In this document: positions 9,138-34,827 of the stretch, piece after piece
Position numbering within the stretch: position 1 is the stretch's first letter
Layout: each line of letters begins with the position of its first letter
From: Escherichia phage vB_EcoM_CRJP21
Sequence record: OQ708376.1
Direction: 5' to 3' (one strand)
Length of the DNA stretch: 64,000 nt
Translations under genes and position numbers: made by a program
Notes under the pieces: model-generated
The model's input: only the letters and a program-made list of their open reading frames with translations
What the model was told of the DNA's origin: nothing
Database searches by the model: none

Positions 9138-10292
9138 TTATGCGTTGTAACCAACTATTACGACTGAGCAGTCAAGCGGTTCTACTACTTTAAGAATTAC
9201 ATTATCATCTTCATCCACTTGTATTTCACTATGAACTACATGATTGTCTGAAGAATATAATTGAACTTGTGGTAGTGCTTTACCATGTTCAGTTACTGGA
9301 ACTGAGATAGAGTACATAGAGTCTTCACCGAGAACCCACTCACTTAAAGTATATTCTTTATGGAAAGGAGTAGTATGCAGTGTTTTTCCGATTATACTCA
9401 AAGAAACAGGTAAATTATCAGTTTGATACACAGTAATATTACCTTCTGCGTCTACAGAAAGATCTACACCAACTTGATATAAGTCACCACTGTATGCTTG
9501 AAGTGCTAAGTACTGTCCACGATCATGAACATCAAATGGAACAACCGCAGAAAATACACCTTCCGAAACAGGTTCAAATTGGGATAGAAGAACTGATGTA
9601 ACAAAATCAATATCCTCACCACTTTCAAGAACATCAAATTCCACCACTTTAGTGTTATAATATGGAGAAGTGAGCGTAGCAGTACCTTTCCCTGATTGTG
9701 TGATAACATCAACTGGAATTGTAAATGCATCATTAACAAATTGGGTAGTAAAGTATTCTGTCCCGTCTGGTAATACGATTGTTATTACCATACCGTTAGT
9801 ATCAATTTCTGAACCAGTGTTGAATAATTTACCACTAATTGAGTCATTACCAACAAATACTGGTGAAATGAGAATATTATCTATATCACGATCTATAATA
9901 CCACATTCAGGTGTATACATATGATACAAGGTTTGTGAACTACCTAAAATTGTTTTATGTAGCATAAATTTATATACAAATCCAGTATCAGTTTCTTGTG
10001 GCTCTTCAGAATATCCACGAACAAAGAAACAATTTTTATTAATTTCACTTAATAGTTGGTCATTAGTTTTATTGTAATTTAATAGATAACCTTTATTATC
10101 TTTAGTTGTTATTTGTACTTTACGATATATTATATTAGTTCTTGGATCAACTAAATCATATAATCTATGGCTTCTTTGGCGATAGATTCTAATATTTTTT
10201 AGTCTAGTTCCATCGTTGAGGATTGCACCATCAACAACATAACCACATTCACCAAACTTATAGCGTCCAGCCGCAGCAATTGACCTTGACAT
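9138..10292 (-). CDS. hypothetical protein (384 aa), beta-rich, possibly structural
   Basis: long minus-strand ORF, SD ggaggg upstream of start. Confidence 0.7.
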   Translation of the reverse strand: MSRSIAAAGRYKFGECGYVVDGAILNDGTRLKNIRIYRQRSHRLYDLVDPRTNIIYRKVQITTKDNKGYLLNYNKTNDQLLSEINKNCFFVRGYSEEPQETDTGFVYKFMLHKTILGSSQTLYHMYTPECGIIDRDIDNILISPVFVGNDSISGKLFNTGSEIDTNGMVITIVLPDGTEYFTTQFVNDAFTIPVDVITQSGKGTATLTSPYYNTKVVEFDVLESGEDIDFVTSVLLSQFEPVSEGVFSAVVPFDVHDRGQYLALQAYSGDLYQVGVDLSVDAEGNITVYQTDNLPVSLSIIGKTLHTTPFHKEYTLSEWVLGEDSMYSISVPVTEHGKALPQVQLYSSDNHVVHSEIQVDEDDNVILKVVEPLDCSVVIVGYNA

Positions 10293-30181: not shown

Positions 30182-30601
30182 ATGAAAAAGATTTTTTTAA
30201 GTATTATTTTAGTACTTTTTAGTTTTAATGTATATGCAGCAGATGCTAAACAGGTTGCAAATACAGTAAAAGATGTTATAGTAGATAATGCTCCTACATT
30301 AGAGGAAATTGGGGTAAAAACTTGTGATATAGTAATATATAATTTAGTTAATGATGAACGAGTTATGTTGAATACGTATGAACAAGTAGTCCCATTGGTT
30401 GAATCTGGTGATGCTTTTAGCTTTACATATAAAGTTAAATTAACAGGAGGGGTTGAAGTTAATCTTGACATTGATACCGCTTCAGTACTAAAAGATAAAC
30501 TAGGATATGTGTTCAATCGTATTCGTGAAGAAGGTCATCTTAAGTATGTTTATGAAAGTAAAATACTAAAACGTGCAATAGTTATAGAAAACTGTAAATG
30601 A
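30182..30601 (+). CDS. secreted hypothetical protein
   Basis: signal peptide ...NVYAADAK. Confidence 0.6.
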   Translation: MKKIFLSIILVLFSFNVYAADAKQVANTVKDVIVDNAPTLEEIGVKTCDIVIYNLVNDERVMLNTYEQVVPLVESGDAFSFTYKVKLTGGVEVNLDIDTASVLKDKLGYVFNRIREEGHLKYVYESKILKRAIVIENCK

Positions 30602-30608
30602 TAATAAA

Positions 30609-30642
30609 AGGGTTGACTTCGGTCAGCCTTTTTTGTTATGAT
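30609..30642 (+). promoter_or_regulatory. PeSL-like cassette
   Basis: gggttgac-ttcg-gtcagcc then T-run then tatgat. Confidence 0.6.
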
Positions 30643-30670
30643 GTTGATATTAACTACAGAGGATAAAGTA

Positions 30671-31312
30671 ATGACTAAGCAAGAAATATTCAAAACTTTA
30701 ATTGACATTTTGCGTCCATCAAAAACTCGTTGTGCGATGGAGTTTGATATTCCTTATGCTGAACGCGTAATCTTTCCACAAGTTAAAGCTGCTGGACTTA
30801 CTTTGCTTGGAATGGGGATGTACTCTGTAGTAGTTGAACATAAAAACTATCCTGGACGAGCATTTAAAGTAACCACTTCACGCTGGGATGGTTTTCGTGC
30901 TTATGCAAAGTACTGCATTGAAAACGCAGGAACCAAGTTTCTTCCAGTGATCTACAGTGCCAACGAACAAGGAAACTTTGGATGGTATGAGATGGACAAG
31001 TACTATCCTATAATTAAACAAAAAAATAATTATGATGACTTTGTTAGTACTAAAATTGGAGATTTGTATTCGTATGCACATGCTGGTCAGTACGCAACTT
31101 CAGTGAATGATATGCGTGGAAATTCTGAAGAGATTGCTATTGCAACGGTCGCTGCTAACATCATGAAAGAGTTTCACGGGCGTTTTGTACCAGACATTCA
31201 TTCAAGTAATGTGATGATGGATAAAGATGGGAATGTATTCATTACTGATCCTCTTTCGTGTGATGTGCGTAGAGAAATACCAATTACTGAAGAAGATCCA
31301 GTTTTTTATTGA
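30671..31312 (+). CDS. protein-kinase-like fold candidate (213 aa)
   Basis: G-loop-like GMGMYSVV, AFKV, catalytic-loop-like DIHSSNVMMDKDGNVFITDP. Confidence 0.4.
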   Translation: MTKQEIFKTLIDILRPSKTRCAMEFDIPYAERVIFPQVKAAGLTLLGMGMYSVVVEHKNYPGRAFKVTTSRWDGFRAYAKYCIENAGTKFLPVIYSANEQGNFGWYEMDKYYPIIKQKNNYDDFVSTKIGDLYSYAHAGQYATSVNDMRGNSEEIAIATVAANIMKEFHGRFVPDIHSSNVMMDKDGNVFITDPLSCDVRREIPITEEDPVFY

Positions 31313-31657: not shown

Positions 31658-31996
31658 ATGGAACAATATTTTGAATTAATAAACAAAGTATCATTTTATG
31701 TAGTATCTTTGGTTTGGGTGTATTATATGTTTTGCTATATTATTGCATTCTTCCGATACACTACTTTATATGAACGTATCTACTATGATGCCCCAATTTC
31801 ATTCTTGATGTTTTGTGCCTGTACGTGGGGAATATTAGAAGTACTGATATGTGGGTATAGTACTGATGAATTAAATCTGGTATCGGTGTTGACTGGGTTT
31901 TCATTTGTTGTTATGATAGCTGCCGTTCCAGTATGGTTGTTCTTTGGACTAGTTCATCGCATTGATATATGGCGTTCTAATATCCCTGAAAAGTAA
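31658..31996 (+). CDS. small 3-TM membrane protein, R.NIPE family
   Basis: C-terminal WRSNIPEK; paralog family. Confidence 0.6.
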   Translation: MEQYFELINKVSFYVVSLVWVYYMFCYIIAFFRYTTLYERIYYDAPISFLMFCACTWGILEVLICGYSTDELNLVSVLTGFSFVVMIAAVPVWLFFGLVHRIDIWRSNIPEK

Positions 31997-31999
31997 GGA

Positions 32000-32347
32000 T
32001 TGGTAATGATTTATTACACTAACATGTTTGCCTATGCTGTTGCTTGCATTTACATTGTTTACTTCTTATTCGGTGGAGTACTGTGCTTCTTTAAGTACAA
32101 AACGTTGTTCAACCGAATGTACCCAAATCATCCAATTGTAGTTGTACTTTTGATTCTTTCAGTTTCTCAAATAATCGTTGAAACTACAATGGGTATCAGT
32201 AGTGTACATTATAGTTTTGGTACTATAGTAATTATTACTATGCTTATTGCATACATTTTAGTACTTGGATATGGTATCTTTGGTAATATTGGTATGAAAA
32301 TGTATCATCGAATTAAAACATTACGTGATAATCTACCGGAGCGTTGA
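32000..32347 (+). CDS. small 3-TM membrane protein, R.NIPE family
   Basis: C-terminal LRDNLPER. Confidence 0.6.
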   Translation: MVMIYYTNMFAYAVACIYIVYFLFGGVLCFFKYKTLFNRMYPNHPIVVVLLILSVSQIIVETTMGISSVHYSFGTIVIITMLIAYILVLGYGIFGNIGMKMYHRIKTLRDNLPER

Positions 32348-32348
32348 T

Positions 32349-32693
32349 ATGTATAATTTGAACCTAATCTCATATATTATAACAACACTGTTTACATTCT
32401 ATGCCTTTGTTGGTATAATCCTACTGTACTTTAAATTTTATAAAGTGTTTAACCGTTTCTATCCTTCAATGGAGAATGAGTTTTTCTTTGTGTTGTACGT
32501 AGGTTACACATTAATGGCTACATGTTTCACTGTAGCCGATGGTGTCATCGGCATTAAAACTGATTCCCCAAATGGTAGTACGCTGGTTGCATTTATTCTT
32601 ACTGGATTCCTTGCAACTTATATTGCCTTCATTACAACATGGTCAGTGGTTGAATTTCTCTTGCGACTACGAAAGAATATGCCGAATCGATAG
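32349..32693 (+). CDS. small 3-TM membrane protein, R.NIPE family
   Basis: trimmed from track ORF 32325; C-terminal RKNMPNR. Confidence 0.6.
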   Translation: MYNLNLISYIITTLFTFYAFVGIILLYFKFYKVFNRFYPSMENEFFFVLYVGYTLMATCFTVADGVIGIKTDSPNGSTLVAFILTGFLATYIAFITTWSVVEFLLRLRKNMPNR

Positions 32694-34455: not shown

Positions 34456-34827
34456 ATGAATATAGATTTGAAAGGTGCAACACGAACTGTTATCCTCGTT
34501 GGGGAATATGCTATCAAGATTCCAACCTTTAAAAGTTGGAAGCTATTCTTAACAGGGATGATAGCTAACCTCAATGAACGTTCGTGGATGCAGTACTCCA
34601 ATCGTAGTGATAGTAGTATCTGTCCTACGTTGTGGTCATCATGTACTGGACTAGTAACTGTACAGAAACGTTGTAAGCCAGTTCAACATAGGGGTTTATT
34701 TTGGGTGGAGTTGTGTGCTTTAGCATTGAATTCAGAGTTAAGTACTGACTTCTTCTATTCAGATGCGAAGCCAGAAAACTTTGGGTATCTGGGTGGTAAG
34801 TTAGTTAAACTTGATTATGGAGATTAA
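34456..34827 (+). CDS. mini kinase-like protein (N-lobe/catalytic-loop-like, ends at DYG)
   Basis: YAIKIP; DAKPENFGY (compare HRDLKPEN); KLVKLDYGD (compare DFG). Confidence 0.4.
   Translation: MNIDLKGATRTVILVGEYAIKIPTFKSWKLFLTGMIANLNERSWMQYSNRSDSSICPTLWSSCTGLVTVQKRCKPVQHRGLFWVELCALALNSELSTDFFYSDAKPENFGYLGGKLVKLDYGD

What the first reader, a model, noticed from the sequence alone, without database searches (positions are those of the whole stretch)
30671..31312. Mini protein-kinase-like ORF (copy 1)
The sequence contains G-loop-like GMGMYSVV, a Lys-containing AFKV, and a catalytic-loop-like DIHSSNVMMDKDGNVFITDP (D-x4-N ... (F/T)D). The order and spacing match a eukaryotic-like or atypical kinase N-lobe and catalytic core with a minimal C-lobe. 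Phage kinases are known for reprogramming host proteins, as with T7 gp0.7, but a compact one in a T4-type accessory region would be notable.
Basis: inference. Interest (0 to 1): 0.6.

Follow-up and report, generated by a model that had tools for sequence, protein, structure and literature searches.

The report
Jumbo-phage homologue of T7 protein kinase
This 213-residue gene of a 350-kb E. coli jumbo phage is a stripped-down relative of the phage T7 protein kinase (gp0.7), already annotated and published as such, so it is a real but known kinase whose activity nobody has yet tested.

Summary
The ORF at 30671..31312 (+) is real and carries the quoted motifs. The window is an Asteriusvirus jumbo phage (99.6 % identical to Escherichia phage 121Q), not T4. 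The 213-aa protein is 100 % identical to 121Q gp205, which is annotated "protein kinase". It is a homologue of the kinase domain of T7 gp0.7 (T7K): PHROG 15752 at E 5e-92 and BLASTP against T7K at E 6e-9, with G-loop, Lys, D-x-H-x-x-N and DP(V/L) all in register. The AlphaFold2 model (pLDDT 93.6) matches only protein-kinase-like folds, and the catalytic residues are almost invariant in 147 diverse homologues. It lacks T7K's basic C-terminal DNA-binding shut-off domain. Bartolec et al. (Nature 2026) describe jumbophage T7K homologues (G17 99.5 %, Munch 61.8 % identical here) and leave their function open. The kinase reading is therefore supported but not new. There is no second copy in the window. 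The likely "copy 2" (34456..34827, 123 aa) is an unrelated micro-kinase-like family. A recurring hairpin/sigma-70 promoter cassette fixes the start at 30671 and suggests host-RNAP (probably early) expression.

The parts
30610..30634 (+). Hairpin GGGTTGAC-TTCG-GTCAGCC followed by a T-run. It looks like an intrinsic terminator for the upstream gene and forms the first half of a composite terminator/promoter cassette.
   Evidence: RNA fold of 30596-30650 gives -19.1 kcal/mol, z -5.7. G17 annotates a terminator at the same place. The 22-nt core recurs 8 times on the + strand, with 0 expected by chance.
30613..30642 (+). Sigma-70-type promoter-like site: -35 TTGACT (30613-30618, inside the hairpin stem), an 18-nt spacer, TGn and -10 TATGAT (30637-30642).
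   Evidence: Promoter scan scores 10/12 with TG. The same layout, mostly with TATAAT, is found at the other cassette copies. Function is inferred, not shown.
30658..30663 (+). Ribosome-binding site AGAGGA, 7 nt before the ATG at 30671.
   Evidence: Read from the sequence. An AGAGGA/GAGG motif sits at the same offset in the other cassettes.
30671..31312 (+). CDS of the 213-aa T7K-like protein kinase (kinase domain only); stop TGA at 31310-31312.
   Evidence: The start at 30671 is supported by homologues that begin at MTK (M1 invariant), by the G17 annotation and by the cassette geometry. The ATG at 30638 lies inside the -10 hexamer.
30671..30790 (+). N-terminal three-helix region (res 1-40) preceding the N-lobe; T7K has a counterpart (its res 1-67).
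   Evidence: DSSP on the model gives H3-14, H17-25 and H27-40. The PHROG 15752 profile covers T7K residues 6-222.
30809..30826 (+). Glycine-rich loop G47-M-G49-M-Y-S52 (T7K G74-N-G76-H-F-S). G49 corresponds to T7K G76, whose G76F change is catalytically dead.
   Evidence: G47 is kept in 141/147 and G49 in 145/147 homologues. Alignment with T7K. G76F: PMC13645617.
30866..30868 (+). Putative ATP-anchoring Lys66 in beta3 (RAFKV; T7K RVIKV, K93).
   Evidence: K in 144/147 homologues; strand E63-68 in the model.
31193..31210 (+). Catalytic loop D175-I-H177-S-S-N180 (T7K D195-M-H-S-G-N200).
   Evidence: D and N in 138/138 and H in 135/138 non-gap homologues; alignment with T7K.
31247..31258 (+). DFG-equivalent D193-P-L plus Ser196 (T7K D213-P-V-S216; S216 is the reported inhibitory autophosphorylation site).
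   Evidence: D in 138/138 and P in 135/136 homologues. Position 196 is Ser in only 2/25 of the jumbo-phage clade (Ala 14, Gly 9). The role of DPV and S216 is from PMC13645617.
31268..31306 (+). Clade-specific conserved C-terminal tail R200-R-E-I-P-x-T-E-x-D-P-x-F212; function unknown.
   Evidence: Column counts in A1: R200 21/25, I203 24/25, P204 24/25, E207 23/25, D209 22/25. Model confidence falls to 84-74 here.

Best explanation
The ORF encodes an active, soluble, kinase-domain-only member of the phage T7 gp0.7 (T7K) protein kinase family, carried by an Asteriusvirus jumbo phage. Shown here: homology to the T7K kinase domain, a confidently predicted protein-kinase-like fold, and near-invariance of the ATP-binding and catalytic residues. 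The fold comprises an N-terminal helical region, a five-stranded N-lobe with a G-loop and Lys66, a short alphaC, two C-lobe helices, the catalytic loop D175/N180 and the Mg-binding D193 in a DPL motif. No activation segment or alphaF-alphaI helices are predicted. Inferred: the gene is transcribed by host sigma-70 RNA polymerase from its own consensus-like promoter, so probably early as for T7 gene 0.7. The protein then transfers phosphate from ATP to Ser/Thr (possibly Tyr) of many host proteins, helping takeover and/or disarming defence systems as T7K does. It lacks T7K's basic DNA-binding shut-off (SO) domain, so it should neither shut off host transcription by that route nor be biased towards DNA-bound substrates. 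The open, loop-less active site with DP(L) in place of DFG suggests low sequence specificity and a constitutively 'on' state. Ser196 (the T7K Ser216 equivalent) could allow self-inactivation in this lineage.
Against: [quoted passage not shown] No conserved alphaC glutamate could be identified (E84 is variable; the invariant acid is D73, before the helix), so the usual Lys-Glu salt bridge is unconfirmed. Early timing is inferred only. Promoter-like sites as a class are not enriched over shuffles in this AT-rich stretch (10 found against 13.9 expected). The same cassette also precedes a gene annotated as a virion structural protein (27949, ahead of 121Q gp201). Identity to T7K is only 27 %, so the substrate range may differ. 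Pfam-A and NCBIfam copies give no hit.
Confidence: 0.8

Rival explanations
1. It is a full functional equivalent of T7 gp0.7, as the RefSeq product name says ('inhibitor of host transcription; positively regulates RNaseIII; negatively on RNaseE').
For: The RefSeq annotations of 121Q and PBECO4 carry this name, and the PHROG 15752 label repeats it. Phosphorylation of RNase III/E by the kinase domain remains possible, because the kinase core is conserved.
Against: Kinase-independent transcription shut-off by T7 gp0.7 maps to the C-terminal SO domain, residues 243-359 (PMC13645617). The alignment with T7K ends at T7K residue 216, and this protein stops 17 residues after the DPL motif. It has no basic segment: pI 5.8 against 11.3 for SO. 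The name is an annotation transfer, not a finding.
Confidence: 0.08
2. It is a pseudokinase or ATP-binding scaffold with no phosphotransfer activity.
Against: Every residue needed for catalysis is invariant or nearly so across very divergent homologues (G-loop, K66, D175, N180, D193). T7K has the same reduced architecture and is a proven, highly active kinase (PMC13645617).
Confidence: 0.05
3. It phosphorylates a small molecule or nucleic acid rather than proteins, in the manner of aminoglycoside/antibiotic kinases or the RNA kinase Ark1.
Against: The only detectable sequence relatives are the T7K family, which has been shown to phosphorylate proteins (PMC13645617). T7K has the same D-M-H-S-G-N loop. 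APH enzymes have a helical C-terminal substrate-binding subdomain that is absent here (own knowledge).
Confidence: 0.05

Closest known systems
Phage T7 gp0.7 / T7K (UniProt P00513), kinase domain residues 1-242
   Same: It is homologous over T7K residues 68-216 (27 % identity, E 6e-9), and the PHROG profiles cross-match. The motifs are the same: GxGx(F/Y)S, (V/A)(I/F)KV, D-x-H-S-x-N-(I/V)-M and I-T-D-P-(V/L)-S. Both have an N-terminal helical extension and a minimal C-lobe. A Ser follows DP(V/L) in both (S196 here, S216 in T7K).
   Different: This protein has no SO/DNA-binding domain (T7K 243-359) and has DPL rather than DPV. It ends in a clade-specific tail, RREIPxTExDPxF. The host genome is a 350-kb myovirus rather than a 40-kb podovirus. 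Its activity is untested.
Jumbophage T7K homologues of Bartolec et al. 2026 (Escherichia phage G17, Salmonella phage Munch clusters), and Sharanji WNN14432.1 (PMC11895373)
   Same: This is the same protein. G17_00108 is 99.5 % identical and syntenic, Munch's protein is 61.8 % identical, and Sharanji WNN14432.1 is 99.5 % identical. The published description matches: SO domain lost, and the Val of DPV not conserved.
   Different: Nothing substantive differs. This report adds a start-codon correction, the promoter cassette, loss of the Ser216 equivalent in most clade members, and the conserved tail.
Other tested T7K homologues of Autographiviridae (T3 gp0.7, Bas64/65/66/68; Salmonella phage JSS1_004)
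   Same: They belong to the same family, at 26-31 % identity by tblastn. They are reported as promiscuous kinases, and JSS1_004 and T7K counter several defence systems (PMC13645617; PMC12345140 abstract).
   Different: Those proteins mostly keep the C-terminal SO domain and come from T7-like phages.
Hanks-type (eukaryotic-like) Ser/Thr/Tyr kinases, e.g. TTK/MPS1, PknB, MAPK
   Different: There is no significant sequence match to PDB kinases or to Pfam Pkinase. The catalytic loop has no HRD Arg/Lys, DFG is replaced by DPL, and there is no activation segment, APE motif or alphaF-alphaI.
PHROG 4301 micro-kinase-like proteins (window 34456..34827 = 121Q gp215; Sharanji WNN14351.1)
   Same: They occur in the same phage, about 3 kb downstream on the same strand. 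They are also a truncated kinase-like core by fold prediction.
   Different: They have no detectable sequence relationship to this ORF (hhalign probability 0.8 %). Their canonical DxKPxN and LDYG motifs differ from DxHxxN and DPL. They are only 118-127 aa and end right after the DFG-like motif.

Membership tests
T7 gp0.7 / T7K protein kinase family (PHROG 2828 / 15752) | [quoted passage not shown] | tested here: met
   PHROG 15752 at E 4.7e-92 and PHROG 2828 at E 8.1e-17. BLASTP against T7K gives E 6e-9. T7K hits PHROG 15752 at E 1.7e-46.
T7 gp0.7 / T7K protein kinase family (PHROG 2828 / 15752) | Glycine-rich loop GxGx(F/Y)S; T7K G76 is essential, as G76F is dead | tested here: met
   The loop is G47-M-G49-M-Y-S52. 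G47 is kept in 141/147 and G49 in 145/147 homologues. G76F is from PMC13645617.
T7 gp0.7 / T7K protein kinase family (PHROG 2828 / 15752) | Catalytic loop D-x-H-x-x-N and beta3 Lys | tested here: met
   K66 is kept in 144/147. D175 and N180 are kept in 138/138 and H177 in 135/138 non-gap homologues.
T7 gp0.7 / T7K protein kinase family (PHROG 2828 / 15752) | DP(V) motif in place of DFG | tested here: met
   The motif is D193-P194-L195. D is kept in 138/138 and P in 135/136. The third position is V in 92, I in 16 and L in 13 homologues. The paper notes that Val is less conserved in jumbophage homologues.
T7 gp0.7 / T7K protein kinase family (PHROG 2828 / 15752) | Inhibitory autophosphorylation Ser right after DPV (T7K Ser216) | tested here: met
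   Ser196 is present in this protein. It is Ser in only 2/25 of the jumbo-phage clade (Ala 14, Gly 9), against 99 of 147 across the wider family. Phosphorylation itself is not testable here.
T7 gp0.7 / T7K protein kinase family (PHROG 2828 / 15752) | C-terminal SO (shut-off, DNA-binding) domain after the kinase domain | tested here: not met
   The protein ends 17-20 residues after DPL and has pI 5.8 with no basic segment. The feature is typical of Autographiviridae members but is not required for kinase activity. Of the top 150 representatives, 72 are of kinase-only length.
T7 gp0.7 / T7K protein kinase family (PHROG 2828 / 15752) | Protein Ser/Thr/Tyr kinase activity, hyperpromiscuous | not testable with these tools
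   This needs an in vitro kinase assay or phosphoproteomics. PMC13645617 says it is untested for jumbophage homologues.
T7 gp0.7 / T7K protein kinase family (PHROG 2828 / 15752) | Early expression by host RNA polymerase | tested here: inconclusive
   A consensus-like sigma-70 promoter with TGn lies directly upstream inside a conserved cassette. There are no transcript data, and the same cassette precedes a virion-protein gene.
Protein-kinase-like (PKL) fold superfamily | Bilobal fold with a five-stranded N-lobe plus alphaC, a catalytic loop and a Mg-binding loop | tested here: met
Hanks-type eukaryotic-like protein kinases (Pfam PF00069/PF07714) | Match to the Pkinase profile; HRD, DFG and APE motifs; activation segment and alphaF-alphaI | tested here: not met
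   Pfam-A gives no hit even at E 10. PDB sequence searches give E>=0.3 for kinases. The motifs are DIH and DPL, and the chain ends 20 residues after DPL.

The most novel reading that the evidence does not exclude
The jumbo-phage kinase-only T7K homologues may be a distinct functional variant. They would be untethered, cytoplasm-wide hyperpromiscuous kinases, and most clade members would also have lost the Ser216-type self-inactivation site (Ala/Gly at position 196 in 23/25). They would instead be controlled or targeted through the clade-specific conserved C-terminal tail RREIPxTExDPxF. If so, a 350-kb phage would use sustained rather than burst-like proteome phosphorylation as a broad anti-defence or takeover device.
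Probability: 0.25. Interest if true: 0.5.

Novelty: already known. Interest (0 to 1): 0.25.

Why it matters
[quoted passage not shown] The jumbo-phage version is a natural 'delta-SO' experiment. Testing it would show whether promiscuity and anti-defence activity lie in the minimal kinase core alone, and how such a dangerous enzyme is controlled without the SO domain. That question is already posed in the literature, so this finding adds no new concept. Its practical value is cleaner annotation: the correct start codon, and removal of the transferred 'inhibitor of host transcription' label.

Tried and rejected
1. I searched for a second copy in the window with tblastn and a family HMM against all six-frame ORFs. 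None was found. The weak hit at 9287..9162 (E 0.39) is noise.

2. I checked the Sharanji 'other protein kinase' WNN14351.1. It is not in this window and belongs to PHROG 4301, not to the T7K family.

3. A motif regex found 34456..34827 as the probable 'copy 2'. hhalign against the T7K-like alignment gives probability 0.8 %, so it is not a paralogue by sequence.

4. Pfam-A and NCBIfam scans of the ORF returned nothing useful. The homologue table lists a precomputed PF27024.1 for all 27 homologues, but that model is not in the local Pfam copy, so its identity is unknown to me.

5. PDB sequence searches with the single protein and with the profile found no solved relative. No T7K-family structure appears to be deposited.

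6. I looked for the alphaC Glu. E84 is variable and only D73, ahead of the helix, is invariant. I could not inspect coordinates, so this is left open.

7. I tried the supplementary table of PMC13645617 to confirm the G17 accession, but no supplement is held. The identity rests on G17 having a single matching place at 99.5 % identity, annotated as kinase.

8. I considered an S/T/Y-depletion test of early proteins, which is the paper's signature of promiscuity. I dropped it because early and late classes are unknown for this phage.

Full report
**Observation**

The window holds an ORF on the + strand that ends with TGA at 31310-31312. It has two possible starts, ATG 30638 (224 aa) and ATG 30671 (213 aa). 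In protein numbering from 30671 they are G47-x-G49, K66, D175-x4-N180 and D193. N180 and D193 are 13 residues apart; I recall the same N-to-D spacing in canonical protein kinases (own knowledge). The coordinates given in the finding (30671-31312) are exactly the CDS I end up supporting.

**Source of the window**

A 3-kb stretch around the ORF is 99.6 % identical to Escherichia phage 121Q and 98-98.6 % identical to PBECO4, G17, Sharanji and other ~350-kb coliphages. These belong to the genus Asteriusvirus. This is therefore a jumbo myovirus, not T4.

The ORF is 121Q gene 205. GenBank annotates it 'protein kinase'. RefSeq annotates it 'protein kinase; inhibitor of host transcription; positively regulates RNaseIII; negatively on RNaseE'. 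The 213-aa protein is 100 % identical in 121Q, PBECO4, SP27, slurp01 and UB, and 99.5 % identical in G17 and Sharanji. It is 61.8 % identical in Salmonella phage Munch and 46 % in Erwinia phage Hallingskeid. In total 29 isolate genomes of 310-373 kb carry it.

**What it is**

- PHROGs places the protein in family 15752 (E 4.7e-92) and, more weakly, in family 2828 (E 8e-17).
- T7 gp0.7 itself belongs to PHROG 2828 (E 1.6e-169) and cross-matches PHROG 15752 (E 1.7e-46, T7K residues 6-222).
- Direct BLASTP against T7 gp0.7 gives 27 % identity at E 6e-9 over T7K residues 68-216. All motifs are in register:
  - LGMGMYS / LGNGHFS
  - RAFKV / RVIKV
  - DIHSSNVM / DMHSGNIM
  - ITDPLS / ITDPVS
- tblastn against phage genomes finds 728 records. 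Most are gene 0.7 kinases of T7-like phages, at 26-31 % identity and E down to 2e-15.

**The two refutation tests named in the finding**

The predicted secondary structure reads as follows:
- three N-terminal helices (res 3-40);
- beta1-beta3 (44-68), with the G-loop and K66;
- a short alphaC (75-84);
- beta4-beta5 (94-109);
- a small hairpin;
- two helices (127-139 and 152-168);
- the catalytic loop and the Mg-binding loop.

The chain ends 20 residues after D193. No activation segment or alphaF-alphaI helices are predicted.

*Conservation.* A profile search of 1.84 billion cluster representatives finds 1,475 family members at E<=1e-3 and 194 at E<=1e-10. I aligned 147 of these (plus T7K) to the profile:

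| Residue | Kept in |
|---|---|
| G47 | 141/147 |
| G49 | 145/147 |
| K66 | 144/147 |
| D175 | 138/138 non-gap |
| H177 | 135/138 non-gap |
| N180 | 138/138 non-gap |
| D193 | 138/138 non-gap |
| P194 | 135/136 non-gap |

Neither refutation condition is met. No solved structure is a sequence relative, and the local Pfam-A and NCBIfam copies give nothing.

**What is missing relative to T7 gp0.7**

T7K consists of a kinase domain (1-242) and a C-terminal shut-off (SO) domain (243-359). According to PMC13645617, the SO domain:
- binds DNA;
- biases the kinase towards nucleic-acid-binding substrates;
- delays autoinhibition.

The kinase domain works without it: a delta-SO phage keeps about 31 % of phosphopeptides. 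The G76F mutant is catalytically dead, and G76 corresponds to G49 here.

The window protein stops 17 residues after the DPL-S motif. It has pI 5.8, against 11.3 for the T7K SO domain. The 'inhibitor of host transcription' part of the RefSeq name is thus an annotation transfer that the sequence does not support.

Kinase-only length is common in the family. Of the top 150 representatives, 72 are 180-260 aa and 50 are 320-440 aa.

**Prior knowledge**

PMC13645617 (Nature 2026) searched for T7K homologues. [quoted passage not shown] G17_00108 ('putative protein kinase', PHA00451) is the syntenic, 99.5 %-identical counterpart of this ORF. PMC11895373 names Sharanji WNN14432.1, which is this gene, as a T7 kinase homologue that may compromise host immunity. 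The finding is therefore already known at the level of prediction. No activity data exist.

**Expression signals and start codon**

Directly upstream lies a hairpin, GGGTTGAC-TTCG-GTCAGCC, followed by a T-run (30610-30634). Its RNA fold gives -19.1 kcal/mol at z -5.7, and G17 annotates a terminator there.

The 22-nt core recurs eight times in the window, always on the + strand, with 0 expected by chance. Aligning the copies shows a fixed cassette:
- the hairpin, whose stem contains TTGACT;
- an 18-nt spacer;
- TGnTATAAT (TATGAT at the kinase copy);
- about 20 nt;
- an AGAGGA-type RBS;
- an ATG 55-61 nt after the hairpin start (7 of the 8 copies; the script found no qualifying ORF after the 27766 copy).

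For the kinase, that ATG is 30671. The alternative ATG at 30638, used in the 121Q and Sharanji annotations, sits inside the -10 hexamer (30637-30642). All clade homologues begin at the MTK start.

The cassette resembles the composite promoter-terminator elements (PeSLs) of T4-like phages (PMC2839356, PMC4122927). I infer host sigma-70-dependent, probably early, transcription, as for T7 gene 0.7. This is unproven. Promoter-like sites are not enriched over shuffles in this AT-rich DNA, and the same cassette precedes a gene annotated as a virion structural protein.

**Details that go slightly beyond the literature**

- The Ser after DP(V/L) corresponds to T7K Ser216, the inhibitory autophosphorylation site. 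It is Ser196 in this protein but Ser in only 2 of 25 sequences of the jumbo-phage clade (Ala 14, Gly 9). Across the wider family it is Ser in 99 of 147.
- The last 14 residues form a clade-specific conserved motif, RREIPxTExDPxF, of unknown role.
- No conserved alphaC Glu was found. The invariant acid is D73, just before the helix.

**'Copy 1'**

No second member of this family is in the window. A motif scan found 34456..34827 (123 aa, 121Q gp215, 'hypothetical protein') with DAKPENFGYLGGKLVKLDYGD at its C-terminus.

- It belongs to PHROG 4301, of unknown function (E 1.5e-43).
- Its 118-127-aa homologues keep G7, K21, E41, D103-x-K-P-x-N108 and D120 invariant, and end 2-3 residues after LDYG.
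- Its model (pLDDT 90.2) matches TTK and other kinase domains at TM 0.5-0.64 normalised to the query.
- It shows no sequence relationship to the T7K-like family (hhalign probability 0.8 %).
- It occurs in 117 phage records, almost always as 'hypothetical protein'.

The two ORFs share a fold class but are not copies of each other.

**Verdict**

More precisely, this is the SO-less jumbo-phage member of the T7 gp0.7/T7K family. It is very likely an active protein kinase acting on host proteins during infection. Novelty: already known. Interest is modest (0.25). The open question is whether the kinase is promiscuous and anti-defence without the SO domain; that question is good, but others have already posed it.

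Noticed in passing
window 34456..34827 (+): A 123-aa ORF (121Q gp215, 'hypothetical protein', PHROG 4301 'unknown function') looks like a micro-kinase. G7, K21, E41, D103-x-K-P-x-N108 and D120 (LDYG) are invariant in 14 homologues of 118-127 aa, and the chain ends 2-3 residues after the DFG-like motif. Its AF2 model (pLDDT 90.2) matches TTK/MPS1 kinase domains (TMq up to 0.64). It is found in 117 phage records (jumbo, T4-like and 58-kb Pseudomonas phages), nearly all labelled hypothetical. It is unrelated in sequence to the T7K-like ORF (hhalign 0.8 %).
   Followed up: partly
window 24523, 27766, 27949, 29526, 30611, 35106, 36388, 38346 (+), each about 22 nt plus flanks: Eight copies of a composite hairpin/promoter cassette. 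The layout is A-run, GGGTTGAC-TTCG-GTCAGCC(C/T), T-run, TGnTATAAT, about 20 nt, AGAGGA and ATG, with the -35 TTGACT inside the hairpin stem. None is expected by chance. It resembles the PeSL elements of T4-like phages (PMC2839356, PMC4122927). One copy precedes the gene corresponding by coordinate offset to 121Q gp201, which is annotated as a virion structural protein; this sits awkwardly with a purely 'early' reading.
   Followed up: partly
window 30638..30670: The 121Q and Sharanji records start the kinase CDS at ATG 30638 (224 aa). That ATG lies inside the predicted -10 hexamer TATGAT and has no RBS. G17 and all clade homologues start at the 30671 equivalent (213 aa). The RefSeq product name also transfers SO-domain functions ('inhibitor of host transcription') to a protein that lacks that domain.
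   Followed up: yes
proteins P0036, P0037, P0039, P0040, P0056, P0061, P0073: Metagenomic proteins of 776-1343 aa are made of several tandem T7K-like kinase domains. Each repeat is about 200 aa, begins with an 'NELxGYKxNP'-like linker and carries GxGxFG...K...DxHxGN...DP. Some repeats have degenerate catalytic loops. The library holds no genomic context, so origin and meaning are unknown.
   Followed up: no
alignment A1, column of window residue S196 (nt 31256..31258): The residue equivalent to T7K Ser216 (the inhibitory autophosphorylation site) is Ser in only 2 of 25 jumbo-phage-clade sequences (Ala 14, Gly 9). PMC13645617, however, describes it as conserved in all variants. The 121Q/G17 lineage keeps Ser.
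   Followed up: partly
window 31658..31996, 32000..32347, 32325..32693 (+): Three consecutive ORFs just downstream of the kinase (112, 115 and 122 aa as listed; 121Q annotates gp207-209 here with slightly different starts). They look like tandem paralogous small membrane proteins. They share a hydrophobic pattern, an internal 'F(R/K)Y(T/K)TL(Y/F)xR(I/M)Y' motif and C-termini 'NIPEK' / 'NLPER' / 'NMPNR'.
   Followed up: no
homologue table: All 27 close homologues carry a precomputed Pfam label PF27024.1, yet the local Pfam-A copy returns no family for the same proteins. A newer Pfam release presumably contains a model for this family; its name could not be checked.
   Followed up: no
Sharanji OR545507.1 20026..20610 (L005:10027-10611, -): A third mini kinase-like gene exists in these phages: WNN14351.1, 194 aa, with IGAGSSRIVF, VIKV, RDIRKQNI and VLDYG. 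It belongs to PHROG 4301 (E 1e-41) and gives a sub-threshold Pfam Pkinase match (E 0.0024). By coordinates it lies about 46 kb from the T7K-like gene in Sharanji, and tblastn finds no match to it in this window.
   Followed up: partly
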